DNA of 64,000 bases from Candidatus Latescibacterota bacterium (GCA_965248435.1 OZ252100.1:4256001-4320000); one strand, 5' to 3'. Shown: positions 23,447 through 51,202, counted from the first letter of the stretch. Numbers and translations: made by a program. Notes: generated from the letters alone by a model not told the origin.

Positions 23447-23539
23447 TTCTTCTAAAGGCGATACGTATTTTACTCGAAGTAAATGGCCCTGTTCAGTCTC
23501 ACTCCGGGTTTTTATATACCCTGTGAGGAAGGAGATGAT

Positions 23540-25162: not shown

Positions 25163-25208
25163 AGAATCTGATTCAGCGTAAGTGACATTTTGAATCGGGG
25201 AGGTTTGT

Positions 25209-26786: not shown

Positions 26787-26887
26787 TGTCTGACTTCAAC
26801 AAAATGTTTCCTTCAGAGACGGAAGACTTCAAGGAAAAATCGTATCGGCGAGGGGTTAAAGTAGAGCAATAAGGAAAGGAACAGGAA

Positions 26888-27904
26888 TTGGGGTCACTTG
26901 CTACCGATAGCCTCCCGAATGTGGCCCGGTTTGCGATCGGGTTCGACCTTCGTGATCGGGACCGGCTCCACGCGATGTGGGACGAGATTTTCGACACACA
27001 GCGTTGGTCGGAGGGGCCGTTTACCGAGCGTTTCGAAGCGCTGTGGTCGTCGTGGAACGGCCTTCCGTCCGTCTCGTTTTCGAGCTGGACGGGCGGTGCC
27101 ATGTCCGCACTGGAGTTTATCGGAGTACGTGGGCACACCGTGCTATGCCCGTCGAATACGTTCATGGCCACCCCACTTTCCGTGATGAAAGCTGGGGGGC
27201 GGATCCAGTTCGTGGACTGCAACCGCGATGACCTATGCATGTCTTTTGTCGACTTTGAGCAGAAGGCAGAAACGTATCACCCGAAGGCGGTCTGGTTGGT
27301 GCACATCGGGGGGCATGTCGCGTTCGAGGTGGAGCAAATCGCGGCTTACTGCGGCGACCACGATATCTGGCTGCTGGAAGATTGTGCGCACGCGCACGGC
27401 GCCCAGTGGAACGGGGCGAGGCCGGGAACGTGGGGGGACGTTGGGGTCTACTCCTTTGCTCCGACCAAGACGATTTCAACAGGCGAGGGAGGCATGCTGG
27501 TTTCCCGGCATGCCGACTTGATCGAATTTGCCAGGAAATACCGGAACTACGGCAAGTTCGAACATGAGGTGGAGGGATTGAATTACCGTCTGAATGAGTT
27601 CACGGCGGCCATCGGTGTTGTGCAGACCGAGCGTCTGGAAGAGATCGTAACTTGGAAGAACCAGTACGCCCGCGACTTTCTGGATACGCAACATCCCGGT
27701 CGGTTGGAATTGCCCGTAGGAATGACATCGGGCCTTTACAAGTATATCGTCTTGGATCCGATCGAAAACTCGACGGGGAAGGTCTACGATCAGCCCGGAC
27801 ATCGGGTTCTAGAACACAAGGTGGACCTGCCCAACACAGATTGGGTTGCGAAAAATCACTGGTGCGTCCCTCTTTACTACCGCGACAGAGACAACCTAGA
27901 ATAG
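26888..27904 (+). CDS. DegT/DnrJ/EryC1/StrS PLP-dependent sugar aminotransferase
   Basis: PSNTFMAT, VHIGG, EDCAHAHG, SFAPTKTISTGEGG. Confidence 0.92.
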   Translation: MGSLATDSLPNVARFAIGFDLRDRDRLHAMWDEIFDTQRWSEGPFTERFEALWSSWNGLPSVSFSSWTGGAMSALEFIGVRGHTVLCPSNTFMATPLSVMKAGGRIQFVDCNRDDLCMSFVDFEQKAETYHPKAVWLVHIGGHVAFEVEQIAAYCGDHDIWLLEDCAHAHGAQWNGARPGTWGDVGVYSFAPTKTISTGEGGMLVSRHADLIEFARKYRNYGKFEHEVEGLNYRLNEFTAAIGVVQTERLEEIVTWKNQYARDFLDTQHPGRLELPVGMTSGLYKYIVLDPIENSTGKVYDQPGHRVLEHKVDLPNTDWVAKNHWCVPLYYRDRDNLE

Positions 27905-29799: not shown

Positions 29800-29839
29800 C
29801 GGTGAACGCGTAGAGTCTCGCGTCCTATTCCGAGGCACT

Positions 29840-30835
29840 ATGAAACTTACTCAGCCCGTACAGATTCTCACGAAGTCTCACTGCAACACAGAGGACCTGG
29901 TCGAATCTGGTCTTAATCGGCTGCAGCAAGACGGGTATGTTGTTTTCGAGCGGTTCTTCCAACCCGAATTTACTGAGGGGATTTATGCAGCTTTTCGTGA
30001 ACGGATCGACTGCCCAGCGTCTTATGGTGGTAAGTTCGGTCGAGGTGAGGACAAGGTTAATGTCACCTATGTGGACCATCCGTTTACGCTTCACCCAAAC
30101 ACGGTCCGGCTGGCGACCCATGAGTCTTTTGTCAAGATCTTTGAGCGTTATGTTCAGACGCCTGTGGTTCTCTCGTATGCCATTGCATATCGCACCCACT
30201 GTATTACAGACCCGGCTTTACAGAGGGACCTCCTCGTGCCCGGTGCATTCAGCGGCTGGCACTCAGACGCGAACCTGATCGCACCCAACCGAGGCTACCG
30301 CCTCTTGGTTTCTATTCTGTATCTGAAGGACGTCAATCCGGGCGGTGGCGCGCTTCAGGTGATCAGAGGCAGCCACACATACGGCAGTCAGAAGCGAGCG
30401 TGGACGCCCGAGGAGGTTGAAGCGCGCAAGGAGAATATCGAGGAGATCTGCGCCCCGGCGGGCTCTGTTATACTTTTCGACATGGAGGTCATCCACCGTG
30501 CAGGCATACCGAAGAACACTTGCCGCGATATTTTCAGGTGTTGTTATGCGCCGGAAGGAAAGTATGCGGAACCTGCAATCTTTTCGAACGAAACGATACC
30601 ATCCGACATGAATCCCAAGGTGGCGCGTCTGTTGAGGTTCGGGCAGGCAAGTTCGATCGCGTTGCCCTTGAGCCAAGGTGATCTTCTAGAAGCTGTTTCG
30701 TTGCGACACCTGTTGGTGGGTGTCGGGGGACGTGTGTTTTCTCCCGAATGGTATTTTACCCAGGCGAGGATGTGCCTGAGACGCGTCGTGTATCGCAGCA
30801 AGCTTTTGAAACGATTCCTAGAGTACCTGAGGTGA
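29840..30835 (+). CDS. PhyH-family Fe(II)/2OG dioxygenase
   Basis: Start ATG 29840 (GAGG RBS); DGYVVF, GWHSD, LYLKDV...GAL.VI.GSH, AGSVILFD...IHRAG, R. Confidence 0.85.
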   Translation: MKLTQPVQILTKSHCNTEDLVESGLNRLQQDGYVVFERFFQPEFTEGIYAAFRERIDCPASYGGKFGRGEDKVNVTYVDHPFTLHPNTVRLATHESFVKIFERYVQTPVVLSYAIAYRTHCITDPALQRDLLVPGAFSGWHSDANLIAPNRGYRLLVSILYLKDVNPGGGALQVIRGSHTYGSQKRAWTPEEVEARKENIEEICAPAGSVILFDMEVIHRAGIPKNTCRDIFRCCYAPEGKYAEPAIFSNETIPSDMNPKVARLLRFGQASSIALPLSQGDLLEAVSLRHLLVGVGGRVFSPEWYFTQARMCLRRVVYRSKLLKRFLEYLR

Positions 30836-37478: not shown

Positions 37479-38264
37479 ATGAGGTACAAAGGCAGTGACG
37501 AATGGGAGAACAGAAGTGATTATGCGGAGACGTTCTACAAACGCGCCAAAGGGTCGCTTCCAGAGATGGAGTCCAGTAAGGCCGTTGCGAGTCTTTTGGC
37601 AGAGAAGATCAGCGAAGGCGACTCAATCCTCGATGTGGGTTGTGGCGCAGGACATTATCTAAGATCTCTTTTAGCGCGTGTTACGAAACCATTTAGCTAC
37701 CAAGGCGTTGATGCTACTCCAGATTTTATCGAGAAGGCATTGGTGGCATGGGGGCATCAGAAGAATGCTTGCTTCAGAGTTGGGGATATCTACGATTTAC
37801 CCTTTTCTGATCGCGAATTCGACATTGTAATGTGTAATAATGTGTTGCTGCATCTGCCGTCCATTGTCAAGCCGGTCCTAGAATTGTTGAGGGTGGCGCA
37901 AAGATTTGTACTGATTCGCACCTTGATCGGCGATCGATCCTTTAGAGTACAAGAGGTGTATTCAAAAGCGTTCTGGCCATTTTCTGACATTCCTGTGGAG
38001 AGGGAATTTGATGACTGCGGAGATCCGGTGAGCTATGGCTTTGAGAATATCTATTCAAGCGGTTACTTTGAGGCCGTAATTAGAAGGGCCCATCCTGATG
38101 CTTCAGTAGAGTTCATCAAGGATTCGTTTTTCGATCCGGAAGCGATCAATCGCTCAGCAAACACCGAAGGGTTACCGAACGCGACAAGGGTCATCGATGG
38201 AATGCAGACACTTGGATACATTATTACTCCGTGGACTTTCGTGTTCGTCGGACTTCAACGGTGA
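37479..38264 (+). CDS. Class I SAM-dependent methyltransferase
   Basis: ILDVGCGAGH, GVD, GDIYDLPFSDREFDIV. Confidence 0.9.
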   Translation: MRYKGSDEWENRSDYAETFYKRAKGSLPEMESSKAVASLLAEKISEGDSILDVGCGAGHYLRSLLARVTKPFSYQGVDATPDFIEKALVAWGHQKNACFRVGDIYDLPFSDREFDIVMCNNVLLHLPSIVKPVLELLRVAQRFVLIRTLIGDRSFRVQEVYSKAFWPFSDIPVEREFDDCGDPVSYGFENIYSSGYFEAVIRRAHPDASVEFIKDSFFDPEAINRSANTEGLPNATRVIDGMQTLGYIITPWTFVFVGLQR

Positions 38265-38278: not shown

Positions 38279-38920
38279 ATGAAGCCAATGATCTTGGGTG
38301 TGATCCCTGCTCGAGGCGGGAGTAAGGGCCTTTCTGATAAGAACCTACGTCCTCTATTCGGAAAGCCGCTAGTCGCTTGGAGTATCAGCGCGGCCAAAGA
38401 GTCGAAGCTGATTGACCGGTTTATTGTTTCTACAGAAGATGACGAGATTGCCGATGTGGTGCATCAAGAAGGGGCAGAGGTTCTGTCTCGCCCTGCGGAA
38501 CTGGCTACTGACGATGCAACGACTTTGTCCGTTCTGATTCACGTGCTTGAACAGATCCCAGCAGACGTGGTGGTGTTGCTGCAGCCCGTCTGTCCAATCC
38601 GTGTGAATAATCTTGTTGATCGGGCGATTGATCGCTTTCTGAAAACTGGCGTGGACTCTTTGGCTACAGGTCATATTCTCAAAATTCTTGAATGGGGTAC
38701 ACACAACAACCTTTCTAGACAGAAGATAGACGGATTCTTTCACGACGATGGAAACGTGTATATTCATCGTGCAGAGGTGCTACGGAAAGGGAGATGGTAC
38801 GGCGAACGCTTGGAGCGCATGGTGGTTGAACACTATTATAATGTAGATATCGACGATGAGGTTGACTTATGGGTGGCCGAGGCCATCATGCAGAAGTTGA
38901 AAGCACAGGATGATCATTAG
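38279..38920 (+). CDS. Acylneuraminate cytidylyltransferase (NeuA/CMP-NulO synthetase family)
   Basis: IPARGGSKGL..KN, VSTEDDEI, RP.ELATD, LQP..P.R, DIDDEVD. Confidence 0.92.
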   Translation: MKPMILGVIPARGGSKGLSDKNLRPLFGKPLVAWSISAAKESKLIDRFIVSTEDDEIADVVHQEGAEVLSRPAELATDDATTLSVLIHVLEQIPADVVVLLQPVCPIRVNNLVDRAIDRFLKTGVDSLATGHILKILEWGTHNNLSRQKIDGFFHDDGNVYIHRAEVLRKGRWYGERLERMVVEHYYNVDIDDEVDLWVAEAIMQKLKAQDDH

Positions 38921-38959
38921 ATACAACAATCTGGTAGGTGAGAGAAAAGCGTCTACGAG

Positions 38960-40114
38960 GTGAGAAACTCTGAATTTTACGCGCCAACGCGGATCCTGTT
39001 GTCGGATAACTCCGCCGAGACGCTCGCAGAGATCTTAAAGTATAACAAGGCAGAACGTACGGTCGTGCTGGTGGATCGCAATGTGTTTTGCATTCGGAAA
39101 ATTCAGCAGATCATTCGATATCTCGAAAAGTTGGGTCTGGAAGCTAGGGTTGTAGAGGTAGATGCTCACGAGCCTGATACTGACCTCGTTGACGAGTACA
39201 CGAAAGTGTTCAAAACGGAACCGCTGGATTTCCTTGTGGGTATCGGGGGAGGGAGCACACTCGATCTGGCAAAAGCAGTATCTGTCTTGGCGTTCAATCC
39301 AGGCTGTGCAGCTGATTACCAGGGGCGCGATCTGTTGCCCAGTTCCGGATGTCCAAGTGTTATGATGCCAACCACCGCGGGTACAGGTAGCGAGGTAACG
39401 CCTGGGGCCGTTGTGTTAGACCCCAAGACCAAGCGGAAAGGGGCCATTTCGAGCCCCTATATCACGCCGGACTATGCCGTGTTAGACCCCGAACTGACCT
39501 TGTCCATGCCCCCTGAAGTAGCTGCGGCAACTGGCCTCGATGCGCTTGGGCACGCTGTTGAATCTTTCACTGCACAATGTGCGACTCCTATGACGAAGAT
39601 GTATAGTAAGGAAGCATTCCGGCTCATCACGAGCAGCCTGACGGCAATTCTTCAGGAGAAGGACAGTTTGGACAGGCGAAGGGGCCAACAGCTGGGAGCC
39701 ACGCTGGCCGGAGTTGCGATCTGTAACTCCGATACCGGAGCCTGTCATGCGATGGCCTACCCGCTTGGAATCTATTTTCAAATACCCCACGGTGTGGCCG
39801 TCGCCCTTTTGTTAGCCCACGTAATCGATGTAAACGTCCGAAAAGGGGCGCGGCAATACGCCGAACTCGCTGATTTGTTGCCGGAAGATTCTGAGGGGCT
39901 CTCTGAAGAGGAGAAGTGCTGGAAGTTTCAGCGGTTTGTCGCGGATCTGGTGCCCAGTGGTGTCCTCCCATCCTCACTTCGGCATTACGGTGTGGAGTCG
40001 TCAGACTTGCCGGAGTTGGCAGAACGAGGTCTCGACTTGAAAACGGCGTTGAGCAATAACCCTGTCGATTTCACGAAGGACGATGCTCAATACGTCCTCG
40101 AGCAACTCATGTAA
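38960..40114 (+). CDS. Iron-containing alcohol dehydrogenase family protein
   Basis: GIGGGSTLDLAK, PTTAGTGSEVT, DALGHAVES, CHAMAY, IPHG. Confidence 0.93.
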   Translation: MRNSEFYAPTRILLSDNSAETLAEILKYNKAERTVVLVDRNVFCIRKIQQIIRYLEKLGLEARVVEVDAHEPDTDLVDEYTKVFKTEPLDFLVGIGGGSTLDLAKAVSVLAFNPGCAADYQGRDLLPSSGCPSVMMPTTAGTGSEVTPGAVVLDPKTKRKGAISSPYITPDYAVLDPELTLSMPPEVAAATGLDALGHAVESFTAQCATPMTKMYSKEAFRLITSSLTAILQEKDSLDRRRGQQLGATLAGVAICNSDTGACHAMAYPLGIYFQIPHGVAVALLLAHVIDVNVRKGARQYAELADLLPEDSEGLSEEEKCWKFQRFVADLVPSGVLPSSLRHYGVESSDLPELAERGLDLKTALSNNPVDFTKDDAQYVLEQLM

Positions 40115-40141
40115 TTCACAAAATGCGTTAGATCCTCTGAG

Positions 40142-41389
40142 ATGAAAAATAAGACTCAGGTCACAGGATTGAAGACAAAGGGTGACAGGATATCTGTACC
40201 CGATTCCTATATCCTTCCCTGGAGTGGTCGCGGAGTTGACTATACAGAAGAGGACATCCGCGTTGTTAGTGATGCGATGCGCCACGCTGATCCTTTGACC
40301 TGCGGACCCTATCTGCTGGAGTTCGAGGGCAAGTTCTCAAAGTATCATAGGGGTATTGCATCTTTCGGTGTGTCTTCTTGTACGGCTGCGCTGGAACTTT
40401 CCGCGATCTTGACTCAGGTTGGTCCTGGCGATGAAGTGATTATACCCTCACACACCTATTGCGCAACCGCAATTCCTTTTGCTCGAAGTGGGGCTAGCAT
40501 CGTCTGGGCGGACATCCATCCAGATTTCCGGGTCGTTACAGCGGAGACGATTTCGCAAAGGATCACGTCGAAAACCAAAGTGGTGGTTGTTGTGCATCTC
40601 TATGGGCTTGCGGCCCCGATGGCTGAGATCATGGGGTTGGCAAAAGACAAAGGGCTTTTGGTGGTCGAAGACTGCGCTCAAGCGATTGGTGCCAGTCACA
40701 ACGGTCGCAAAGTGGGGACCATTGGCGATTTTGGGTGTTTCAGCTTCCACGGTCAGAAGAATATCACGACTCTAGGGGAAGGTGGGATGCTGACGGTCCA
40801 ATCAAGAGAGCTTGCCCAGTTGGTGCCCGGTCTCAGGCAAAACGGCCATCGACCATATCCCGGAGACAGGGAACGGTACTGGCTGCCGGCCATGGTTGAT
40901 ACTGACTTTGACATTCCTGATGTCTGGCCCTATAAATATTCTCTAGGGGAAATTCAGTGTGCTCTGGGCGTGAACCTTATGATGCGGCTGGACGAGCTCA
41001 GCGCACTTCGGTTTCAGCAGGCAAAACGAATCGTCACGGCATTGGAATGCTATCCCGAACTCAGTTTTCAGCATACTCCCAAGGGTAGCTCACACGTGTA
41101 CCATCTTTTGAGTGCCCGGTACGACGGAGAGGAGTTCGGAAAAACACGGGACGACCTAATCGATCTGTTAGCCTTCAAGTACCGCATCCAGGCGATCGTG
41201 CAGTACTATCCGCTGGACCGATATCCATTGTTCACCCGGGCGGAATTCGGTGCGGGGGATTGTCCACATACTGACAACTTCTTCGATAACATGGTTTCAT
41301 TTCCTTTCTATCCCTGGTTCAGTGATCAGCAATTCGAATATTTGGTCGAGAGCGTTAAGGAGGCTCTGGAAACCCTAAGAGAGGGATAG
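40142..41389 (+). CDS. DegT/DnrJ/EryC1/StrS PLP-dependent aminotransferase
   Basis: SSCTAALEL, GDEVI.PSHTY.AT, VHLYG, EDCAQAIGA, SFHGQKNITTLGEGG. Confidence 0.93.
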   Translation: MKNKTQVTGLKTKGDRISVPDSYILPWSGRGVDYTEEDIRVVSDAMRHADPLTCGPYLLEFEGKFSKYHRGIASFGVSSCTAALELSAILTQVGPGDEVIIPSHTYCATAIPFARSGASIVWADIHPDFRVVTAETISQRITSKTKVVVVVHLYGLAAPMAEIMGLAKDKGLLVVEDCAQAIGASHNGRKVGTIGDFGCFSFHGQKNITTLGEGGMLTVQSRELAQLVPGLRQNGHRPYPGDRERYWLPAMVDTDFDIPDVWPYKYSLGEIQCALGVNLMMRLDELSALRFQQAKRIVTALECYPELSFQHTPKGSSHVYHLLSARYDGEEFGKTRDDLIDLLAFKYRIQAIVQYYPLDRYPLFTRAEFGAGDCPHTDNFFDNMVSFPFYPWFSDQQFEYLVESVKEALETLREG

Positions 41390-41394
41390 GCCAT

Positions 41395-41928
41395 ATGCCT
41401 GATCCACCAGACGTAGTAGCTCGGAAGGCACAGGAGATCCGTTTGGTCTGCACAGACGTCGATGGTGTGCTTACCGATGGCGGAATGTACTATTCTGAAA
41501 GCGGGGATGAACTCAAAAAATTTAACACAAGAGATGGAATGGCCATTGCACGGTTGCAGGCTGCGGGAATCGAGGTCGCTATCATCACTGGTGAGGACAC
41601 GGCGCTCGTTGCTCGCCGAGCCGCCAAGTTGAACGTGAAGTACCTGTTTCAGGGAGTTAAAGATAAGAAGCGGGTGCTAGCAGCGCTTGCGGATCGGTTG
41701 AAACTCAAGTTGTCCCAAGTTGCTTACATAGGTGATGACATAAACGATCTAGGCGCCCTTCGGGCTTCCGGATTAAGTGCCACAGTAAGTGATGCACTAG
41801 AATCAGTTAAGAGTGAAGTATGCTACGTTTGTCAAATGACTGGTGGAAGCGGGGCACTTCGAGAGTTCACAGAGCTGATTTTGCGAAGCCAAGACGAAAC
41901 TGGAAATGTTATTCACCAGATATCGTAA
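41395..41928 (+). CDS. HAD phosphatase, KdsC/YrbI (Kdo-8-P / KDN-9-P phosphatase) family
   Basis: DVDGVLTDGG.YY..SG.ELKKF..RDG, AIITG, YIGDDIND, GG.GALREF. Confidence 0.93.
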   Translation: MPDPPDVVARKAQEIRLVCTDVDGVLTDGGMYYSESGDELKKFNTRDGMAIARLQAAGIEVAIITGEDTALVARRAAKLNVKYLFQGVKDKKRVLAALADRLKLKLSQVAYIGDDINDLGALRASGLSATVSDALESVKSEVCYVCQMTGGSGALREFTELILRSQDETGNVIHQIS

Positions 41929-41962
41929 CGAACCCTTGTGATTGGTCAAGGAGCTTGGGTTT

Positions 41963-43051
41963 ATGAACATTCATATCGGGAACCACATCGTTGGTGGTGA
42001 CGCTAAATGTTTTCTGATTGCCGAGATCGGATTGAATCATAACGGGGATGTTCGTATCGCTCGAAAGCTGATCGAAGAAGCTGCCAGGGTTGGTGCCGAT
42101 GCAGTCAAGTTTCAGAAGCGGACAATAGAAGATGTGATCATTGGGGAGTATCTCGAAAGGCCCTATGCTGGCTATAACTCATATGGTGCGACGTATGGGG
42201 AACATAGGGCTGCGCTCGAACTTCAGGACGAAGTCTGGCCTGAGCTGCGTGATCTGAGCCTTAAGCTCGGATTGGAGTTTTTTGCCAGTCCGTGGGACGA
42301 GAAGAGTGCTGATTTTCTAGAGGAGTTGAACATTCCAGCCCTCAAGATCGCATCAGCTGACCTGACGAATCTTCCCCTTCTGAAACATGTAGCGGCCAAA
42401 GAGAAACCTGTGATCTTATCCACAGGCATGAGCACGATGAAGGAGATTGAAGAGGCCGTTTCCACCGTTCAAAAGATTAATCCGCAGTTGGCGTTGCTAC
42501 ATTGTGTCTCTACCTATCCCTTTGACGATCATCACGCGAATTTAAGTATGATACCTATTTTGAAGGACAGATTTCCACAAGCCGTGATTGGTTATTCCGG
42601 ACACGAAAAATCAGGACACATAATTTCTGTTATGGCAGCTGTGTTAGGTGCGAAAATCATAGAGCGGCATTTTACGCTAGATCGCACGCTGAAAGGCCCG
42701 GACCATGCCGCTTCCCTGGAACCACACGGGTTTGGTTTTATTCATGAGAACGTAAGGAAGGCTGAGGCTGCCATGGGTTCGGGAGAGAAGCGTATTCTAG
42801 ATAGTGAGAAACCGATTCGCGAGAAATTGGCGAAAAGCGTTGTTTCGAAATGCGATATCAAGGCAGGGACCGTCATCACAGCAGATATGCTCACTGTGAA
42901 GAGCCCTGGGATTGGGATAGTGCCGACACAGCTCCAGGATCTTTGCGGTCGGACCGCGATGGTCGATGTTGCAGTTGATACATTGCTCCCAACAGATGCG
43001 TTGACGTGGCCGCTGACGCGGGTTGAGGCGGCCCTTACTAGCTCGGATTGA
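41963..43051 (+). CDS. NeuB-family nonulosonate synthase with C-terminal SAF domain, phosphate-substrate-like subtype
   Basis: IAEIGLNHNG, VKFQKR, KIASAD.TN, LSTGMS, LHCVSTYP, GYSGHE, IERHFTLDR...GPDH.ASLEP; ATG 41963 with AAGGAG RBS. Confidence 0.95.
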   Translation: MNIHIGNHIVGGDAKCFLIAEIGLNHNGDVRIARKLIEEAARVGADAVKFQKRTIEDVIIGEYLERPYAGYNSYGATYGEHRAALELQDEVWPELRDLSLKLGLEFFASPWDEKSADFLEELNIPALKIASADLTNLPLLKHVAAKEKPVILSTGMSTMKEIEEAVSTVQKINPQLALLHCVSTYPFDDHHANLSMIPILKDRFPQAVIGYSGHEKSGHIISVMAAVLGAKIIERHFTLDRTLKGPDHAASLEPHGFGFIHENVRKAEAAMGSGEKRILDSEKPIREKLAKSVVSKCDIKAGTVITADMLTVKSPGIGIVPTQLQDLCGRTAMVDVAVDTLLPTDALTWPLTRVEAALTSSD

Positions 43052-43148: not shown

Positions 43149-44507
43149 ATGGCTAAAACGGCTTTGATCGTCATCGACAATTCTAAGAGAGAACTATTTG
43201 GTTGCTCTTTGTTGAAGCGGTGTTTGGCTTCAATGGGCATTCGATCGCTGCTTTGCAGCCGGTTTGCGTTTAATACCTATTATGCACATTATGCTCCTGA
43301 TGCGATTGTATGGCCAAACGCGTTTTCTGATCTTTCGAGTTTTCAGAAGTCCAGCCACATTTTTGTATTGCCCAGTGAATCAGGAAATGGACAGCCCGAT
43401 CAAGTGGTTGCAACCCACGCGGGAACCGACATTCATCCGGTGTATCCGGAGTGTGTCGACCGATTCTTCTGCTGGGGACATGCGATGCGGGAGCTTCTAC
43501 TCCAGACCGGGACGTGGCGTGAGGACCAGTTGATTGCGACTGGAAGTCCGGCCACGGACCACTGGCTATTGCCCAGATCCGAGTCCAGGCTCACACCCCC
43601 GAGGGCTGGCTTGACGACCACGTTTAGGGCCATCAATAACGGCAAAACGAACCATTTTAAATGGCTTGATCAAGTTGAGCGTGTGGGGGGGGACGGAACC
43701 TACTTCGCTCCTCCGCAACACGCGGAGTCGTGGCTTTTTTTCGAGGCCTCACTCGCGCGCGTGATGGCGGACTTGGTGCGTACTCTCGCCTTGGATCGTA
43801 GCGAAATCATGACGATTCGCCCCCATCCGTTTGAAGACGAGGTTCGATATAAACACTTCCAGGAGCTTACGGACGGACGTGTATTTGTGACGAAACAGGG
43901 CACAATCACGGAGTGGCTTGATAGAATTTCAATCCTGTTCACCTGCGTCTCTGCTTCTGCGCTGGATGCTGTTGTCCGCGGTGTGCCGGTCGTATCGCTA
44001 AAGGGTCTGCTCGATCCGGATGCGGTCAGGAAAATTCCCTCCGATTTCCATTATGAATACGAGGATCTGCTATGGCAGCTGGAAGATACAGAACAGGCTG
44101 TTGATTATTTTCGGCTAGCAGCCAAGGGGGAACTCAGGCCATGCCGTGACGAAAAACGAATATTTGAGTTTCTACACAGACACTTCCTGTTTCCCAGGAG
44201 AATTCCGGCAGCAATGAATATTGCGCTGGAGATCAAAAACGCGTTTGAGGGGGGTGCGGATCGAAAGGGAGGATATACCGTTCCACGCTCTAAGGTCCTG
44301 AAGCACATGGTTCGCCGGCACGTACCGATGTTTCCCCAATTGATCGCCCTCCGAAAATACTTGTCAAGCCTATTGCCGAAGCGCAAGAACATCGGTTTCT
44401 CATATCAGCCCTGGCGTGTTCGGGAGCAGAGAACCGCCATACAAACTGCTGACAAGCTATTATCTGTTTGGAATAGGGACGGAGAGATAGTCACGGAGCC
44501 CCGGTGA
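43149..44507 (+). CDS. Uncharacterized surface carbohydrate biosynthesis protein (GT-B-like)
   Basis: KRE motif near the N-terminus, FCWG, TGSP..D, IRPHPFE, SASALDA...GVPV. Confidence 0.6.
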   Translation: MAKTALIVIDNSKRELFGCSLLKRCLASMGIRSLLCSRFAFNTYYAHYAPDAIVWPNAFSDLSSFQKSSHIFVLPSESGNGQPDQVVATHAGTDIHPVYPECVDRFFCWGHAMRELLLQTGTWREDQLIATGSPATDHWLLPRSESRLTPPRAGLTTTFRAINNGKTNHFKWLDQVERVGGDGTYFAPPQHAESWLFFEASLARVMADLVRTLALDRSEIMTIRPHPFEDEVRYKHFQELTDGRVFVTKQGTITEWLDRISILFTCVSASALDAVVRGVPVVSLKGLLDPDAVRKIPSDFHYEYEDLLWQLEDTEQAVDYFRLAAKGELRPCRDEKRIFEFLHRHFLFPRRIPAAMNIALEIKNAFEGGADRKGGYTVPRSKVLKHMVRRHVPMFPQLIALRKYLSSLLPKRKNIGFSYQPWRVREQRTAIQTADKLLSVWNRDGEIVTEPR

Positions 44508-45776: not shown

Positions 45777-46730
45777 GTGAGAGTTCTTGTCACAGGCGGA
45801 TGCGGCTTTATTGGTTCCCACGTGGTAGACAAGCTGCGGGACAAAGGAATCGATGTTCGGGTCTACGACTTGATCCACAACGCCGAGTTGATGCGAGACG
45901 ATGTAGAGTACATCGGTGGGAGCATCCTTGATTTTCACCGTCTTGTGGGCGCGATGTCAGGGGTATACGCGGTCTACCACCTTGCCGCGATAGCGGACGT
46001 GAAGGAGGTGCTCGAAAATCCTCACCGGTCTGAAGAGATCAACGTTCGTGGCACGATAAACGTCCTAGAAGCAGCGCGCTGCATGGCAGTACGACGGGTC
46101 ATCTACGGAAGCTCGACCTGGGTGTACAGTGAGGCAGATGGAGACGAGGTGGACGAAACTACGCCGTTACTATCCCCATCGCATCTTTATACTGCAACGA
46201 AGATGGTGGGGGAATACTACTGTAGAAGCTACACGGAGCAATACGAGGTGCCTACTACTGTACTTCGCTACGGGATTCCATATGGCCCCAGGGCACGAGA
46301 TGGAGCGGTTCTGCCGATATTCGTTGAGAAAGCGCTCTGTGGCGAGCCTTTGGCAATTTCGGGAGATGGATCGCAATATCGGAAGTTCGTCTACGTTGAA
46401 GACCTTGCCGATGGAAATGTCAAAGCACTTAAATCCACCGCACCGTATCGTGTCTACAACCTTGACGGGCTCGAAAAGAATAGCATCAGACAGATTGCAG
46501 AGACGATCAGGGAAATCTTGGGAAGTGTGGAAATTAAATATGTTGAGGCACGTCCTGGAGATTTTTCCGGCAAGGAGGTTTCGAGCGAACGTGCACAGCG
46601 TGAGCTCGGTTGGGAGGCGACTACACCTTTCAAGGAGGGAGTTCGGCGCTACATAGAGTGGTACAAGGTGCGCCGTGAGGGTCGAGAGTTGATGGACAGG
46701 CGAGAGAGGGACCTGATCCAGACTCTTTAG
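45777..46730 (+). CDS. NAD-dependent epimerase/dehydratase
   Basis: VTGGCGFIGSH, HLAA, SSTWVY, YTATK, GDGSQ.R.FVYVEDLA. Confidence 0.92.
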   Translation: MRVLVTGGCGFIGSHVVDKLRDKGIDVRVYDLIHNAELMRDDVEYIGGSILDFHRLVGAMSGVYAVYHLAAIADVKEVLENPHRSEEINVRGTINVLEAARCMAVRRVIYGSSTWVYSEADGDEVDETTPLLSPSHLYTATKMVGEYYCRSYTEQYEVPTTVLRYGIPYGPRARDGAVLPIFVEKALCGEPLAISGDGSQYRKFVYVEDLADGNVKALKSTAPYRVYNLDGLEKNSIRQIAETIREILGSVEIKYVEARPGDFSGKEVSSERAQRELGWEATTPFKEGVRRYIEWYKVRREGRELMDRRERDLIQTL

Positions 46731-46932
46731 CCCCACTGCCGTAGAAATCGATCCTCTCATACGCACCTCTGATTCCGAGGTCCGCTGTCGGGACCGCCTA
46801 ACCCTAATACGAGCGCGGGTGCGACGCCAGCACCCCACAGGGGAAGGGTTCACTGGCGAACACCACAAGTTGTACAACAACGATGGCATACTACAACATC
46901 TCGATGTCCCGAATTGCCCTTGTGAGAATTTC

Positions 46933-47967
46933 GTGCCCCAGACAATCACGATAGAAGGCCGAATGATCGGACAGGGGCAACAGACCTTCATCATCGCGGA
47001 ACTGGGATACAACTTCCGAACGCCAGAAGAGGCCCTGGCTTCGGTCGACGCGGCGGCCGACTGCGGCGTCGACGCGCTCAAAATTCAGACGTTCAAGGCG
47101 GAGACGATCACGACGCAGACCGTCGACTTTCCGGAGGAGGCCGGCGGCGTCAATCAGTTCGACGAGTTCAAGCAATACGAGATATCTGAGGTGGTGCACC
47201 GTCAGATTTTCGACCGATGCCGAGAGCGGAGCTTGATCCCGTTTTCCACGCCGAGCCATCCGGACGACGTCGACCTGCTAGAGCGGCTTGGGTCGCCGAT
47301 CTACAAGGTCGGGTCCGACGATTTGACCAACTTGCCGTTTTTGGACTACGTCGGTAGGCAAGGTAGGCCGGTCATCTTCTCGTCGGGAATGGCGACGCTC
47401 GGCGAAGTAGACAAGGCGATTCACGTGCTTCACGAGGCGGGAAACCGCGACCTGATTCTTCTCCAGTGCGTGTCGAACTACCCGATCAAGGACGTGTCCC
47501 AGCTGGACCTGAACGTGATCCGAACGTATCGCCGTGTGTTCCCGGTCCACGTGGGGCTTTCGGACCATACGCAGTCATTTGTTGCTGCGATTGCGGCTGT
47601 CGCACTCGGCGCGTGCGTGGTCGAGAAGCACTTCACGCTCGATAAAGCGCTGCCGGTCCCGGACGCATTTTTCTCAGCCGACCCGCAAGAGATGAAGCAT
47701 CTGGTAGACGCGCTTCGGGAGGTGGAGCAGATGCTCGGAGCGGGGTACAAGACGCCTAGCGCGTCCGAAAAGGGTATGCGAACCGAAACGCGAAAGAGCA
47801 TCATCGCGCTGAGAGACCTGCCTGAAGGGCATCAGATCGGAGACAGTGACGTGATCATCAAGCGTCCGGGGAATGGCATCGAGCCGGCGCTCCTTCAGGT
47901 CGTGATCGGCCGGACGACCCGCACGGCGATTCCGGCGGATACACCAATCGAATGGTCAATGGTTTGA
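46933..47967 (+). CDS. Second NeuB-family nonulosonate synthase (divergent) with SAF domain
   Basis: IIAELGYNF, KIQTF, KVGSDDLTN, SSGMAT, LQCVSNYP, GLSDHT, EKHFTLDK; start probably GTG 46933. Confidence 0.92.
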   Translation: MPQTITIEGRMIGQGQQTFIIAELGYNFRTPEEALASVDAAADCGVDALKIQTFKAETITTQTVDFPEEAGGVNQFDEFKQYEISEVVHRQIFDRCRERSLIPFSTPSHPDDVDLLERLGSPIYKVGSDDLTNLPFLDYVGRQGRPVIFSSGMATLGEVDKAIHVLHEAGNRDLILLQCVSNYPIKDVSQLDLNVIRTYRRVFPVHVGLSDHTQSFVAAIAAVALGACVVEKHFTLDKALPVPDAFFSADPQEMKHLVDALREVEQMLGAGYKTPSASEKGMRTETRKSIIALRDLPEGHQIGDSDVIIKRPGNGIEPALLQVVIGRTTRTAIPADTPIEWSMV

Positions 47968-48986
47968 CGGATCCGGTATGCCGGGTCGCGTTTGTCGCGG
48001 AGTCGGAACAGGCCATCGGCACGGGTCACGCGGTCGAGACGATAGCGTTGTTGCGGGCGTGCGTCGGCTTCGGGATCGAGCCGAGGGCGGTATTCACGGC
48101 CGGGACGCCGCAGCCCCTGCTTGACGGGATCAAGACGGATTTCGAGACGATCGATGAGCCGGACGAGAAGACGCTCCGAGACACGGCTGCCCGACTGGCC
48201 TGGGACGGGGTGTCAACGGTGGTGACGAACTTTCGACGGATCACCGAGGACCAGATTCAGGCCCTGCGAGACGGAGGGCTGAGGACGGTCTGTATCGACG
48301 AGTTGGGCGGGCGGACCATTCACCCGGACGTCATCGTGAATACGTCGATCGTTCGGACTTTTCAAGTGTATCCCGGTACGCGCGCCCGGGTGCTAGCCGG
48401 TCCCGCTTATTTGCCGCTTGACACACGCTTTAGTACGGCGCGAACGAAACGGAACTTTCCGCAGGGGGTGCGGGCAATCGCGGTTTCGATGGGCGGAACG
48501 GACCGGACGCAGGCTACGCGCCGGGTGGTCGCGTCCCTGCGGAACGTAAGCGAAATCCGTCTGCACATCGTCGTCGGGCCCGGGTTCACGTTCACGGAAG
48601 CGCTAGCCCAGGAGGTCGCCGGATGCGCGGGACAGGCGACCCTACACCGAACGCCCCCAAAGCTGCAGCAGATTCTCGGGTGCGTGGATGTGGGGATCAC
48701 TGCTGGGGGCAACACTCTCTACGAGCTCGCGTGCCTCGGGACGCCTGCCCTGGTGCTGTTCGAAGATGAGCACGAAAGACTGCAGGGCGAGGCGTTCGAG
48801 GCCGCCGGGTTTGGCAGGTGCCTCGGGCAGGGGGTTTCGTTCCAACCGGAGGCGCTGCTGTCGGCGATCGAGGCCATGGACGAAGCCGGGACCCTTTCCG
48901 GGCACAGCGAGGCAGGACGAAAGCTTGTGGACGGACGCGGTGTGGAGCGTGTTTTGAGTGTCGTGCGGGAGATCTCCAAATACTGA
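47952..48986 (+). CDS. PseG/SpsG-like nucleotide-sugar hydrolase (GT-B fold)
   Basis: IGTGH, IDE, G..Y..L, SMGGTD, VVGPGF, AGGNTLYELA.LG.P, VDG.G..RV. Confidence 0.82.
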   Translation: MVNGLTDPVCRVAFVAESEQAIGTGHAVETIALLRACVGFGIEPRAVFTAGTPQPLLDGIKTDFETIDEPDEKTLRDTAARLAWDGVSTVVTNFRRITEDQIQALRDGGLRTVCIDELGGRTIHPDVIVNTSIVRTFQVYPGTRARVLAGPAYLPLDTRFSTARTKRNFPQGVRAIAVSMGGTDRTQATRRVVASLRNVSEIRLHIVVGPGFTFTEALAQEVAGCAGQATLHRTPPKLQQILGCVDVGITAGGNTLYELACLGTPALVLFEDEHERLQGEAFEAAGFGRCLGQGVSFQPEALLSAIEAMDEAGTLSGHSEAGRKLVDGRGVERVLSVVREISKY

Positions 48987-48998
48987 CGGGAGCGAACC

Positions 48999-50075
48999 AT
49001 GCTAGATCACAAATCGATGCGTGACAACGATCAGTCCTACCTGAGTAGCCGGTGGGAGAACATCCGATTCGTCCTGCTCCGCGGGAAGGGACACCGGTTC
49101 CGGTTCCTGAAGAACCGTATCAAGTGGCATATTTATCCACGGTTCGGGTGGCTGCCGAAGTTTCCGGACCACCTGGATCTCGAGCTGTCCAGCGCGTGTA
49201 ACATGCGGTGCCCGATGTGCTTTACGATCACCGATGAATTCAGGCAGAACGTGAAGCTGACCAACATGAGTTTCGATTTGTTCCGGAAAATCGTGGACGA
49301 GGGGGTCCGACACAAGCTGTTCTCCATCCGGCTGAGCTGGCGGGGTGAACCCACGCTGAACCCCCATATGGTGGAGATGACGCAGTACGCGAAGGACCGG
49401 GGGATCAAAGAAGTGTCGACGCTGACGAACGCTCTGAAATTGTCGCCGGAGCGATTCGAAGCTCTGATGAACGCAGGGCTCGACTGGCTGACGATCTCCT
49501 TCGATGGCATGGGGGAAACCTACAACCGGATCCGCAAACCGGCGAAGTTCGAAGATGCGGTCGCCAAAATCCGAGAGTTTCATCGGATCAAACAGGCGGA
49601 AAAGTCCCAGAAACCTGTGATCAAGATTCAGGGCGTCTGGCCTGCGATCAAGGAAGACCCTCAGGAGTTCTACGATCTCTTTCGACCGATCGTCGACCAG
49701 GTCGCCATCAACCCGCTGCTCGACTACCTTCGGAATGACAAGGAAATTGAATACCGAGACGGGTTTACGTGCCCTGTGCTATGGCAAAGGCTGGCGATCG
49801 GCGCGGATGGTCTCGTTCCCCTCTGTACTCACGACGAGATGGCGCACCACATCGTTGGTGACGCGAACAAGGAATCTGTCTACGATATCTGGAATAGCGA
49901 CACTCTATCTCAGGCGCGGAGTGCACACATGGAACATCAGGGGGTCGAAAAATACACTGCATGCAAGGAGTGTTTCCTACCACGCTCCTCAGAACCGGAG
50001 CTCGTGGAACTGGAGGACGGCAGGCTTGTGTCGGTGGAAAACATGGTAGACCGGACGGACGTGATTGGAGCATGA
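48999..50075 (+). CDS. Radical SAM protein with SPASM/twitch domain
   Basis: CNMRCPMC, RGEPTL, TNA, ISFDG; C-x17-C-x45-CxxC. Confidence 0.93.
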   Translation: MLDHKSMRDNDQSYLSSRWENIRFVLLRGKGHRFRFLKNRIKWHIYPRFGWLPKFPDHLDLELSSACNMRCPMCFTITDEFRQNVKLTNMSFDLFRKIVDEGVRHKLFSIRLSWRGEPTLNPHMVEMTQYAKDRGIKEVSTLTNALKLSPERFEALMNAGLDWLTISFDGMGETYNRIRKPAKFEDAVAKIREFHRIKQAEKSQKPVIKIQGVWPAIKEDPQEFYDLFRPIVDQVAINPLLDYLRNDKEIEYRDGFTCPVLWQRLAIGADGLVPLCTHDEMAHHIVGDANKESVYDIWNSDTLSQARSAHMEHQGVEKYTACKECFLPRSSEPELVELEDGRLVSVENMVDRTDVIGA

Positions 50076-50187: not shown

Positions 50188-51162
50188 GTGAAGGGACCGA
50201 GCTCGTTCAAGCTGCTGCAGCGATTCCTTCAGCTCTACTGGCTGAAGCCTTTTGACGCAGTGAACGATACGGCGAACGCTGTCGCACTTCGGAGTTGCAG
50301 ATGGGCGCCACCGATCCTGGAGATCGGATCAGGAGATGGTGTATTCTCCTTCATCATGCATGGAGGAGTGTTCGCGTTCGAAGATGATCGCTACACGCAA
50401 TCAGACCTGAATCGATCAGGTGACATTTTCGACGTCTATGAGCGGGATCTTAGGATGACTTGCGAGCAACAGGCGCAGCTCAGGGTGACGGCGACGATCG
50501 ACATGAAGCGTTCCCATCTCTACAAATGCGGCGAAACCGGGCTCTATGACGGGCGGGTCCAAGCCCCGCCCTTTCCCCTGCCCTTCAGGAGCAACTGCTT
50601 CCGTACGGTCTTTCTCTATTTTCCACACGGACTGGCCGAGCGGAATCATCGAGTGAATTACGAGAAAACGTTGGCCGACATACGACGGGTACTTCGGGAC
50701 GATGGACGGCTGGTGATGACGGCGTTCGACCGGGAGGTGAAGCACTTTTTCGTCTGCGATCCTCTGGCGCGCTTCTTTAAGTCCCTTGGGTTTGAAAGGA
50801 TGGCGCGCTACTTCCACCGTCTGGATTCCGGACGGTGCAAAGAAATCAGCGGACTGAGCAAGACGATGGATGAATGGAAGTGTCTAATGGTGAAGAGCGG
50901 CTTCAGGCTTCGGTCATCCTGGAACCACATCAGGCCGTTGGCATGGCGAGTCTATGACCTGCAGACGCGTCCGGTCCTCAGATTCCTCATTCGATGGAGT
51001 AAGTCTCTCGAGAAGCTGGGATGCAAAGGGATCGTCAAGAACATCTGGGTGCACACACTTGCGCCATTTCTCTGGCTGTTCTACCTCGTTGCCGCGCGAC
51101 CCAACGTGAACGCTCGGGGGGGTCTGCTTTACGTGTTTGAATGCGAGCCACTTGCGAGATGA
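50188..51162 (+). CDS. Class I SAM-dependent methyltransferase
   Basis: PILEIGSGDG.F, LPF..N.F.TV, L.DIRRVL..DG.L. Confidence 0.78.
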   Translation: MKGPSSFKLLQRFLQLYWLKPFDAVNDTANAVALRSCRWAPPILEIGSGDGVFSFIMHGGVFAFEDDRYTQSDLNRSGDIFDVYERDLRMTCEQQAQLRVTATIDMKRSHLYKCGETGLYDGRVQAPPFPLPFRSNCFRTVFLYFPHGLAERNHRVNYEKTLADIRRVLRDDGRLVMTAFDREVKHFFVCDPLARFFKSLGFERMARYFHRLDSGRCKEISGLSKTMDEWKCLMVKSGFRLRSSWNHIRPLAWRVYDLQTRPVLRFLIRWSKSLEKLGCKGIVKNIWVHTLAPFLWLFYLVAARPNVNARGGLLYVFECEPLAR

Positions 51163-51202
51163 GCAAGGATTACCACGACTAGGTAAGAAAAGAGTAGCCG
51201 AT

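What the first reader, a model, noticed from the sequence alone, without database searches (positions are those of the whole stretch)
38279..43051. Self-contained predicted pathway to an amino-substituted KDN-like nonulosonic acid
Five contiguous genes: CMP-NulO synthetase, Fe-ADH, DegT aminotransferase, KdsC-type phosphatase, and a NeuB with KFQKR/GYSGHE motifs like the sugar-phosphate-using synthases (KDN-9-P synthase, animal NANS). No NeuC-type epimerase is in the window. Established: synthase + HAD phosphatase + cytidylyltransferase make CMP-KDN in Bacteroides, and an Fe-ADH-family enzyme (KdnB) plus a PLP aminotransferase (KdnA) convert Kdo to 8-amino-Kdo in Shewanella. Inference: the same oxidation/transamination logic applied to a nine-carbon acid after condensation, giving an amino-nonulosonate without an amino-hexose precursor, possibly then methylated by 37479-38264. 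The aminotransferase is not obviously a KdnA ortholog, so the analogy is functional.
Basis: partly seen in the sequence, partly recalled or inferred. Interest (0 to 1): 0.75.

Follow-up and report, generated by a model that had tools for sequence, protein, structure and literature searches.

The report
Predicted pathway to amino nonulosonic acid
Five tightly packed genes, kept together in distant bacteria, look like a self-contained route from a sugar phosphate to a CMP-activated nine-carbon acidic sugar carrying an extra amino group, a sugar type not yet described.

Summary
They are a cytidylyltransferase, an Fe-alcohol dehydrogenase (ADH), a DegT aminotransferase, a KdsC-type phosphatase and a NeuB synthase, 5-39 nt apart. 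The same set recurs in a same-class genome (identical order, plus the upstream methyltransferase) and in a Prevotella MAG, where transposases flank it and it holds that genome's only NeuB.

NeuB1 looks like a sugar-phosphate user. It lacks the Arg314 of ManNAc-type NeuB. It shares a Lys-Arg pair with Bacteroidaceae synthases that sit beside KDN-9-P phosphatases. Its GYSGHE-type relatives usually sit beside a KdsC-type phosphatase. GYSGHE itself is not found in the Bacteroidaceae type.

The ADH belongs to a dedicated clade of 118 sequences. Its own-genome paralog sits beside a KdnA-like transaminase inside a legionaminic-type cluster. Its nearest outside relatives pair with KdnA orthologs next to kdsB. 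Neither the window ADH nor its DegT is a KdnB or KdnA ortholog.

The genome has no KdsA, KdsD or NanE, and no NeuC-type gene in the window.

Best reading (0.5): sugar-6-P + PEP → KDN-9-P-type acid → dephosphorylation → oxidation and transamination (C9 favoured) → CMP-sugar. Substrates, step order and position are inferred. This is a new variant of known logic, and I found no description in print.

The parts
37479..38264 (+). SAM-dependent methyltransferase, a possible tailoring enzyme of the product
   Evidence: Pfam Methyltransf_25/31/11. It ends 14 nt before the next gene. A 64%-identical homolog holds the same position in G096. None is present in the Prevotella copy.
38279..38920 (+). CMP-ulosonate cytidylyltransferase (213 aa from ATG 38279; the ORF is open from 38231)
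   Evidence: PF02348 scores 93 bits but covers only profile positions 2-124 of 217. The best NCBIfam hit is PseF at 113.9, under its cut-off of 205.7. Homologs are 68% identical in G096 and 45% in Prevotella.
38960..40114 (+). Fe-dependent alcohol dehydrogenase of a clade linked to nonulosonic acid clusters; predicted oxidase that makes the carbonyl for transamination
   Evidence: Pfam hits. The best PDB hits are methanol DH, propanediol OR and FucO, with KdnB at only 1e-27. It sits in a 118-row clade with support 100. Metal and NAD motifs are invariant.
40142..41389 (+). DegT-family PLP aminotransferase of a lineage separate from KdnA, LegC and PseC
   Evidence: PF01041 scores 283 bits. Lys206 is present. 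The best PDB hit is 7b0d at 8e-45, with KdnA at 2e-31. It forms a clade with the G096 and Prevotella copies at 100/99 support.
41395..41928 (+). KdsC/KDN-9-P-type HAD phosphatase, the only one in the genome
   Evidence: NF058599 scores 174.9 (cut-off 180), KdsC 172.4 (cut-off 208) and TIGR01670 159.3 (cut-off 106.95). It is the only genome hit above the TIGR01670 cut-off.
41963..43051 (+). NeuB-family synthase NeuB1 of the KFQKR/GYSGHE type, predicted to use a sugar 6-phosphate (the ORF is open from TTG 41942; ATG 41963 follows an AGGAG)
   Evidence: Ser321 lies at the Arg314 position, and the Lys59-Arg60 pair is shared with the Bacteroidaceae synthases beside KDN-9-P phosphatases.
43149..44507 (+). 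Candidate transferase for the activated sugar (weak assignment)
   Evidence: TIGR04396 'surface carbohydrate biosynthesis protein' scores 84.2 (cut-off 125) and NF046086 'BFO_1060 family glycosyltransferase' 39.7 (cut-off 200), both under cut-off. The start of a homolog (62% over 32 aa) follows NeuB in G096.

Best explanation
The five genes form one pathway that builds a CMP-activated amino-deoxy nonulosonic acid of the KDN type without an amino-hexose precursor. NeuB1 condenses PEP with a hexose 6-phosphate, most likely mannose-6-P, to give a 9-phosphorylated nonulosonate. The KdsC-type phosphatase removes the phosphate and frees the C9 primary alcohol. The Fe-ADH oxidises a hydroxyl to a carbonyl. 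C9 is favoured because the enzyme's relatives act on primary alcohols and because this matches Kdo-to-Kdo8N chemistry. The DegT aminotransferase converts the carbonyl to an amine. The short cytidylyltransferase then activates the product. The neighbouring methyltransferase may methylate it, and the downstream gene may transfer it to a glycan. What is shown: the gene families, intact catalytic motifs, conserved synteny, and the phylogenetic links. What is inferred: the substrates, the order of steps and the position of the amine.
For: (1) The module is conserved. G096 carries MT-CMP-ADH-DegT-HAD-NeuB in the same order at 56-68% identity. Prevotella MAG L001 carries CMP-DegT-ADH-HAD-NeuB between transposases, and its genome shows only one NeuB-family match. 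No other oxidoreductase in that set could supply a carbonyl to DegT. (2) By eye, 6 contig lengths are shared between the ADH and NeuB1 homolog lists. A further 8, besides L001 itself, are shared between the ADH list and the Prevotella-type NeuB list, including a Treponema primitia contig of 163660 bp. (3) NeuB1 looks like a sugar-phosphate user. Arg314 of N. meningitidis NeuB aligns with Ser321. The own-genome NeuB2, PseI-like and LegI-like proteins keep Arg. All 4 of 4 Bacteroidaceae synthases next to phosphatases that pass the KDN-9-P phosphatase model have Ser, and 119 of 119 NeuB1 homologs have G, S, C or T. Lys59-Arg60 is shared with those 4 of 4 but not with the Arg-keeping paralogs. In Bacteroidota, 23 of 29 GYSGHE-type NeuB genes have a KdsC-type HAD directly upstream. 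(4) The phosphatase is not a housekeeping KdsC. The genome has no KdsA over cut-off (124.8 against 314) and no KdsD (43 against 203.7). (5) The ADH and transaminase fit a theme of acting on ulosonic acids. The ADH clade of 118 rows has support 100. The own-genome paralog sits beside a KdnA-like DegT (5k8b 1.2e-78) in a Leg-type cluster. The top-ranked outside ADHs (L011, L013) sit beside KdnA orthologs (5e-110), HldD and KdsB. In all, 9 of 12 ADH-adjacent DegTs fall in one KdnA-like clade at 99/100 support. (6) Precedents in print: Kdo is converted directly to Kdo8N before incorporation (passages of PMC4402001, which cites Gattis 2013); Man-6-P goes to Kdn-9-P, Kdn and CMP-Kdn in B. thetaiotaomicron and P. 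parvum (passages of PMC6200933).
Against: There are no biochemical data and no RNA data (one search listed no RNA holder). The window's ADH and DegT are not orthologs of KdnB or KdnA, so the regiochemistry rests on analogy. NeuB1 is only 34-36% identical to the Bacteroidaceae synthases and does not group with them. The GYSGHE-type group is one side of a branch, but with only 44.8 SH-aLRT support. The join between the KdnA-linked outside ADHs and the 118-row clade has only 52 support. The phosphatase scores just under both equivalog cut-offs. A source of mannose-6-P was not clearly found: there is no type I PMI domain, and only a 32-bit PF01050 hit. The module is rare in reference genomes: 2 of 167 other genomes of the phylum, and 0 of 400 other Bacteroidota sampled. 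The legionaminic-type clusters that hold the paralog would normally give 9-deoxy sugars with no C9 alcohol, which weakens a single 'C9' rule.
Confidence: 0.5

Rival explanations
1. Amination comes before condensation. The ADH oxidises a secondary hydroxyl of the hexose 6-phosphate and DegT aminates it, as NtdC and NtdA do in kanosamine synthesis (recalled). NeuB1 then condenses the amino-hexose-6-P. The product would be neuraminic acid made by a new route (from C2 of the hexose) or a 7-amino analogue (from C4).
For: DegT-family enzymes can act on sugar phosphates: the PDB lists NtdA at 1e-27 to the window's DegT. The module holds a phosphatase that would finish such a route. The type-A DegT lineage is distinct from the KdnA-like one, so a different substrate class is possible.
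Against: The ADH's closest characterised relatives (methanol DH, propanediol OR, lactaldehyde reductase) act on primary alcohols (established knowledge), and a hexose 6-phosphate has none free. ADH-linked NeuBs are scattered among very similar GYSGHE-type NeuBs with no sign of the ADH. In the Bacteroidota sampled, 133 of 401 genomes had a short GYSGHE-type NeuB, but only the Prevotella MAG itself matched the ADH clade. This suggests the synthase substrate is the ordinary one. NtdA is not a close match.
Confidence: 0.15
2. The chemistry is the same, but it acts on the CMP-activated sugar or at a secondary carbon (C5, C7 or C8), in the way ElaA and ElaC act on C8 of CMP-legionaminic acid.
For: Passages of PMC13656337 describe oxidation and reduction at C8 of CMP-Leg5,7Ac2. 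The paralogous ADH lies in a legionaminic-type cluster, whose usual product is 9-deoxy. I recall an 8-amino nonulosonic acid reported from Tenacibaculum maritimum (Vinogradov 2003; not read here).
Against: ElaA and ElaC are predicted NAD(P)H-dependent enzymes and are not described as Fe-ADHs. The SDRs beside the paralog lack the dehydratase triad (the motif rule is recalled), so the 9-OH may be kept there. Fe-ADHs of this type favour primary alcohols.
Confidence: 0.15
3. The five genes are not one pathway. DegT serves a Pse/Leg-like route with the SDR at 45777, the PseG-like gene at 47952 and NeuB2 at 46819. The ADH is an unrelated neighbour. Only NeuB1, HAD and the cytidylyltransferase make plain CMP-KDN.
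For: The window holds NeuB2 (which keeps the Arg314 equivalent), a PseG-like gene (95.4 bits against a cut-off of 153.55) and an SDR. DegT's best NCBIfam hit is PseC (217.5 against a cut-off of 423.5).
Against: DegT and the ADH stay adjacent inside the module in G096 and in Prevotella, where no second NeuB, PseG-like gene or SDR accompanies them. The ADH clade is dedicated to such clusters.
Confidence: 0.07
4. The product has eight carbons. NeuB1 condenses arabinose-5-P with PEP, and the module is a Kdo8N pathway with a NeuB-family enzyme in place of KdsA.
For: The enzyme roles map one-to-one onto KdsA, KdsC, KdnB, KdnA and KdsB. The genome lacks KdsA. The phosphatase is of KdsC type.
Against: No KpsF/KdsD arabinose-5-P isomerase was found (best 43 bits against 203.7). 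All 5 Bacteroidota genomes tested carry both a GYSGHE-type NeuB and a true KdsA. The characterised P. parvum enzyme did not take Ara-5-P (Table 1 passage of PMC6200933).
Confidence: 0.05

Closest known systems
Kdo8N pathway of Shewanella oneidensis (KdnB Fe-ADH-family oxidase and KdnA PLP transaminase, acting with KdsC and KdsB)
   Same: The enzyme families and logic match: phosphatase, then Fe-ADH-family oxidation, then DegT-family transamination, then cytidylyl transfer of a 2-keto-3-deoxy acid. A KdnA-like transaminase (5k8b 1.2e-78) partners the paralogous ADH in the same genome.
   Different: The backbone comes from a NeuB-family synthase, so nine carbons are expected. The window ADH is of methanol-DH/FucO type, not KdnB type. 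The window DegT is a separate lineage. The organism has no KdsA or KdsD.
CMP-KDN pathway of Bacteroides thetaiotaomicron (BT1714 synthase, BT1713 phosphatase) and Prymnesium parvum
   Same: It combines a sugar-6-phosphate-dependent NeuB-family synthase, a C0-type HAD phosphatase and a cytidylyltransferase. The Lys-Arg pair and the loss of the Arg314 equivalent are shared with Bacteroidaceae synthases that sit beside KDN-9-P phosphatases.
   Different: Identity is only 34-36% and the proteins fall in a separate clade. The metal-site motif is GYSGHE rather than G[FY]SDHT. Two extra enzymes, the ADH and DegT, are inserted.
Animal sialic acid route (NANS and NANP)
   Same: It has a phosphorylated substrate and product and a dedicated phosphatase. 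PMC8208679 (passages) says that eukaryotic NanS has lost Arg314, as NeuB1 has.
   Different: There is no epimerase/kinase here, and NanE was not found. Resemblance at KFQKR and GYSGHE is my recall only and was not tested, because no NANS sequence was available.
ElaABC C8-epimerisation cassette for CMP-legionaminic acid (Acinetobacter KL49, Vibrio)
   Same: It is a small tailoring cassette that rides on a nonulosonic acid cluster and oxidises the finished sugar (passages of PMC13656337).
   Different: Its enzymes are predicted NAD(P)H-dependent oxidoreductases not described as Fe-ADHs. It has no transaminase, and the outcome is an epimer rather than an amine.

Membership tests
NeuB / nonulosonic acid synthase family (PF03102) | NeuB domain scores above the curated cut-off | tested here: met
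   267.4 bits against a cut-off of 22.1, plus SAF at 35.7.
N-acetylneuraminate synthase equivalog (TIGR03569) and PseI (TIGR03586) | Score above the equivalog cut-off | tested here: not met
   318.1 against 399.65 and 244.3 against 340.25.
ManNAc/diacetamido-hexose-using NeuB, LegI and PseI | Arg314 (N. meningitidis numbering) in the SAF domain, reported as essential (PMC8208679 passages) | tested here: not met
   Ser321 aligns with Arg314 of 1xuu. Arg is kept in NeuB2 and in the PseI-like and LegI-like proteins of the same genome.
Sugar-6-phosphate-dependent synthases (KDN-9-P synthase / NANS type) | A dedicated HAD phosphatase encoded beside the synthase | tested here: met
   Present in the window, G096 and Prevotella. 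Also 23 of 29 Bacteroidota GYSGHE-type NeuB loci have it.
Sugar-6-phosphate-dependent synthases (KDN-9-P synthase / NANS type) | Groups with B. thetaiotaomicron-type KDN-9-P synthases in a tree | tested here: not met
   Identity is 34-36%, and they form separate groups in the tree. That the Bacteroidaceae proteins are BT1714 orthologs is inferred from their neighbour passing NF058599.
Sugar-6-phosphate-dependent synthases (KDN-9-P synthase / NANS type) | Activity with Man-6-P or ManNAc-6-P and not with the free sugar | not testable with these tools
   This needs an enzyme assay.
KdsC / KDN-9-P phosphatase (HAD-IIIA, YrbI family) | Subfamily model TIGR01670 above its cut-off; catalytic DxDGV and GDDxxD motifs | tested here: met
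   159.3 against 106.95, with DVDGV-21 and GDDIND-113.
KDN-9-P phosphatase equivalog NF058599 | Score above 180 bits | tested here: not met
   174.9 bits, just under the cut-off. The KdsC equivalog scores 172.4 against 208.
KdnB (3-deoxy-manno-octulosonate 8-oxidase) | Closest solved relative is KdnB | tested here: not met
   5k8c scores 1e-27 over residues 70-283, against 5.4e-54 for methanol DH.
KdnA (Kdo8N transaminase) | Closest solved relative is KdnA, and it groups with KdnA orthologs | tested here: not met
   5k8b scores 2.2e-31 against a best hit of 8.2e-45. The protein lies outside the KdnA-like clade (99/100 support).
DegT/DnrJ/EryC1 aminotransferases (as opposed to dehydratases of the same fold) | PLP-binding lysine present | tested here: met
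   Lys206 in SFHGQK. That this position marks aminotransferases is recalled.
CMP-nonulosonate/Kdo cytidylyltransferases (PF02348) | Domain above cut-off; full-length match or an equivalog hit | tested here: inconclusive
   93 bits against 22.6, but only profile positions 2-124 of 217 are matched. PseF scores 113.9 against 205.7 and KdsB 37.2 against 155.2.
Canonical Neu5Ac, Leg and Pse pathways | A hydrolysing 2-epimerase or PseG, a 4,6-dehydratase and an N-acetyltransferase within the module | tested here: not met
   None lies among the five genes or in the G096 and Prevotella copies.

The most novel reading that the evidence does not exclude
A methanol-DH/FucO-type Fe-ADH paired with a DegT-family transaminase is a portable two-gene cassette. 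It turns the terminal hydroxyl of 2-keto-3-deoxy acidic sugars into an amine. It would act on Kdo beside kdsB, on legionaminic-type sugars in this genome's other island, and on a KDN-type sugar here. The product here would be a 9-amino-9-deoxy nonulosonic acid, a class I do not know from nature. Homologs of the ADH clade are named from at least eight bacterial and archaeal lineages.
Probability: 0.35. Interest if true: 0.75.

Novelty: new variant of a known kind. Interest (0 to 1): 0.62.

Why it matters
Nonulosonic acids decorate the surfaces of bacteria and archaea, and they shape recognition by phages, immune systems and lectins. All known amino members get their nitrogen from amino-hexose precursors. 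A route that adds the amine after the backbone is built, or at least without NeuC-, LegG- or PseG-type chemistry, would add a new branch to the biosynthetic map of these sugars. It would also predict a new sugar mass to look for in glycomics surveys. It would give chemoenzymatic access to amino-KDN analogues. The comparative data further suggest that Kdo8N-like chemistry, so far described only in Shewanella, is more widespread and uses a second, unrelated Fe-ADH lineage.

Tried and rejected
1. The metagenome scan with the ADH alignment returned only 30-39% relatives. None of the 80 loci held NeuB1 or the HAD. Seven of them had a DegT next door, and these later proved informative.
2. The genome-contig scan with the single ADH found only one locus.
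3. The first NeuB tree contained 5 rows that I had extracted in the wrong frame (L111-L115). I rebuilt it with a tblastn-guided extraction.
4. The protein atlas gave only generic NeuB/SAF clusters.
5. Earlier findings of the scan: 3 look-ups, nothing returned.
7. The promoter and terminator scan found no more sites than shuffled sequence gives.
8. Literature searches: Fe-ADH + aminotransferase + nonulosonic gave 0 papers, and triamino + nonulosonic gave 0. A four-term search gave an Aeromonas paper that mentions an alcohol dehydrogenase with a Gfo/Idh/MocA gene in a flagellin island, which is a different arrangement. PDB codes 7B0D and 7B0M gave nothing relevant. A search for the NANS loop paper did not find it.
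9. I considered the HAD as a housekeeping KdsC and rejected that, because the genome has no KdsA or KdsD.
10. I considered GYSGHE-type NeuB as a KdsA substitute in Bacteroidota and rejected that, because 5 of 5 genomes tested have a true KdsA.
I used matching contig lengths, compared by eye, as a proxy.

Full report
**Observation.** The + strand between 37.4 and 44.5 kb carries closely spaced ORFs.
- A methyltransferase lies at 37479-38264.
- A short CTP_transf_3 cytidylyltransferase lies at 38279-38920.
- An Fe-ADH lies at 38960-40114.
- A DegT aminotransferase lies at 40142-41389.
- A KdsC-type HAD phosphatase lies at 41395-41928.
- A NeuB-family synthase (NeuB1) lies at 41942/41963-43051.
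- A gene with weak similarity to 'surface carbohydrate biosynthesis' and BFO_1060-type proteins lies at 43149-44507.

The gaps from the methyltransferase through NeuB1 are 14, 39, 27, 5 and 13 nt. Catalytic motifs are intact in all five enzymes.

The module sits in a glycan island of about 50 kb. The island also holds a second NeuB (NeuB2), a PseG-like gene, two more cytidylyltransferases, a second DegT, two carbamoyltransferases, B12-radical-SAM enzymes and many methyltransferases.

**Is the grouping real?** The ADH was the most discriminating probe.
- In the window's phylum (168 representative genomes), only 2 other genomes have a close relative.
- One of them, G096, carries the module on a 5.8-kb contig. 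The order is MT-CMP-ADH-DegT-HAD-NeuB, followed by the start of the downstream gene, at 56-68% identity.
- A Prevotella MAG from another phylum has CMP-DegT-ADH-HAD-NeuB between transposase genes. The epimerase that follows is WecB type, not NeuC type. That genome shows a single NeuB-family match.
- In that compact copy no SDR dehydratase, second synthase or nucleotidase is present. The only possible source of a carbonyl for the aminotransferase is therefore the ADH.
- DNA around most database homologs could not be fetched. Comparing contig lengths by eye gave indirect support. Six lengths are shared between the ADH and NeuB1 homolog lists. Eight more are shared between the ADH list and the Prevotella-type NeuB list, including a Treponema primitia contig named in both.

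**The synthase.** NeuB1 scores below the NeuB and PseI equivalog cut-offs.
- In its alignment to N. meningitidis NeuB, Ser321 falls at Arg314. PMC8208679 (passages read) calls Arg314 essential in bacterial enzymes and says eukaryotic NanS has replaced it.
- In one MAFFT alignment, Arg is kept in NeuB2 and in the genome's PseI-like and LegI-like proteins.
- The position is Ser in G096 and in 4 of 4 Bacteroidaceae NeuBs that sit next to phosphatases passing the KDN-9-P phosphatase model. It is G, S, C or T in 119 of 119 NeuB1 homologs.
- The Lys-Arg pair of KFQKR is shared with those Bacteroidaceae proteins (K-x-T-K-R). The Arg-keeping paralogs have T-F or T-Y there.
- GYSGHE is not shared. The Bacteroidaceae type has G[FY]SDHT, is only 34-36% identical to NeuB1, and forms its own group in the tree.
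- The GYSGHE type is large. The motif occurs in 114 of 120 NeuB1 homologs and in 118 of 120 Prevotella-type homologs.
- A short form is present in 133 of 401 Bacteroidota genomes sampled. In 23 of 29 loci inspected, a KdsC-type HAD lies directly upstream.
- All 5 of 5 such genomes tested also have a true KdsA, so this NeuB type is not a KdsA substitute.
- Taken together, this is good contextual evidence that the GYSGHE type makes a phosphorylated product.
- The similarity to animal NANS is my recollection only.

**The phosphatase.** It is the only KdsC-family gene in the genome. The genome has no KdsA over cut-off, no KdsD and no NanE. The phosphatase is therefore neither a housekeeping Kdo enzyme nor part of a ManNAc-6-P route through NanE. 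Mannose-6-P is the simplest substrate. GDP-mannose dehydratase is in the window, but a phosphomannose isomerase was not clearly found.

**The ADH and aminotransferase.** Neither is an ortholog of Shewanella KdnB or KdnA.

The ADH belongs to a clade of 118 sequences (FastTree support 100) that stands apart from ordinary Fe-ADHs. The tree had 127 rows; 5 homologs shorter than 350 aa were left out. Subclades that contain module-type contexts occur in three places in this clade.

A fourth subclade holds a 41%-identical paralog in the same genome. It lies in a second island between a true LegC (478.9 bits against a cut-off of 420) and another DegT. Nearby are a LegI-like NeuB, a NeuC/LegG-type epimerase, a PglD-like acetyltransferase, a CBS-nucleotidyltransferase and a cytidylyltransferase. 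The best solved relative of that second DegT is KdnA (1.2e-78; the next hit is 2e-52).

The metagenome ADHs that ranked highest outside the clade also have a DegT next door. In L011 and L013 the order is Fe-ADH, DegT, HldD and KdsB, with the last two above their equivalog cut-offs. The L013 DegT is a clear KdnA ortholog (5.3e-110, full length). Its ADH is again of methanol-DH/FucO type and not KdnB type.

In a DegT tree (IQ-TREE, 17 rows), 9 of 12 ADH-adjacent DegTs form one KdnA-like clade (99/100 support). The three module-type DegTs form their own clade (100/99 support).

This Fe-ADH lineage is therefore repeatedly partnered with transaminases next to genes for 2-keto-3-deoxy acids. The join between the KdnA-linked ADHs and the 118-row clade is weak (support 52).

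**Mechanism.** The best reading is: sugar-6-P + PEP → 9-phospho-nonulosonate (NeuB1) → free acid (HAD) → aldehyde or ketone (ADH) → amine (DegT) → CMP-sugar. Methylation and transfer may follow.

C9 is favoured for three reasons.
- The ADH's characterised relatives handle primary alcohols.
- The phosphatase step would expose exactly that alcohol.
- Kdo-to-Kdo8N conversion works this way on the free acid (PMC4402001 passages).

The SDRs beside the paralog lack the dehydratase triad (the motif rule is recalled). A 9-hydroxyl may therefore survive there too, but this is only a lead.

The rivals are amination of the hexose phosphate before condensation, action on the CMP-sugar or at a secondary carbon, an accidental neighbourhood with the NeuB2 route, and an eight-carbon product. 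Each is weighed in its own section.

**Novelty.** Full-text searches found no paper that combines an Fe-ADH, an aminotransferase and nonulosonic acids, and none on triamino nonulosonic acids. Papers on Kdn, Leptospira, Aeromonas, Acinetobacter and SugarBase, read as passages, do not describe this module. It recombines known enzyme logic on a new backbone, so I rate it a new variant of a known kind.

The evidence is entirely comparative. The module is rare in reference genomes, but the ADH clade is named from diverse bacteria and archaea in metagenomes.

Noticed in passing
window 45777-50075: A second nonulosonic acid route lies next door. It has a GalE-like SDR (45777-46730), NeuB2 (46819-47967, which keeps the Arg314 equivalent and GLSDHT), a PseG-like gene overlapping NeuB2 by 16 nt (47952-48986, 95.4 bits against a cut-off of 153.55) and a radical SAM/SPASM protein (48999-50075). 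No matching acetyltransferase was seen.
   Followed up: partly
G000:C1:1676000-1715999 (L004, L005): A second island holds a canonical-looking Pse cluster (PseB-like, PseC-like, PseF-like, a PseG/GNAT fusion and a PseI-like gene). It also holds a Leg-type cluster containing the Fe-ADH paralog and a KdnA-like DegT (L005:14193-16529), followed by an unknown 629-aa protein. The NeuC/LegG-type gene (L005:8839-9822) lacks about 63 N-terminal profile positions and follows an IS30-like gene (L005:7794-8777). That IS30-like gene has the same Pfam scores as window 7709-8692.
   Followed up: partly
L011:8986-13526 and L013:5055-9637 (metagenome contigs): A KdnA ortholog (PDB 5k8b 5e-110) is paired with a methanol-DH/FucO-type Fe-ADH rather than a KdnB-type one. 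The pair lies directly upstream of hldD and kdsB. This may be a Kdo8N-like system outside Shewanella that uses a different oxidase lineage.
   Followed up: partly
L120-L148 (Bacteroidota genomes): A short NeuB of about 290 aa with no SAF domain, carrying KFQKR and GYSGHE, is present in 133 of 401 Bacteroidota genomes sampled. It usually follows a KdsC-type phosphatase (23 of 29 loci), in genomes that also have KdsA (5 of 5 tested). The product of this common pair is unknown to me.
   Followed up: partly
whole genome G000: No KdsA, KdsD or NanE was found. Yet there are 4 strong NeuB-family genes (a fifth NeuB-family hit scores only 33 bits) and 7 CTP_transf_3 hits over cut-off. The organism seems to invest heavily in nine-carbon acids and to make no Kdo.
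   Followed up: partly
window 21572-27904: A full-length cytidylyltransferase (21572-22342) is followed by a class I/II aminotransferase, two B12-binding radical SAM proteins (23483-25162, 25209-26786) and a DegT that matches only profile positions 8-248 of 360 (26888-27904), so it may be truncated.
   Followed up: no
window 16848-18623, 51137-53008, 1-1017, 29651-30835: The same island holds two carbamoyltransferases and two PhyH-type dioxygenases, which hints at carbamoylated and hydroxylated glycan decorations.
   Followed up: no
window 6458-8692: An IS110-family transposase (6458-7438, - strand) and an IS30-like gene (7709-8692) lie at the upstream edge of the glycan genes. The GC content of the module region (0.50-0.52) is within the range seen across the window.
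   Followed up: no
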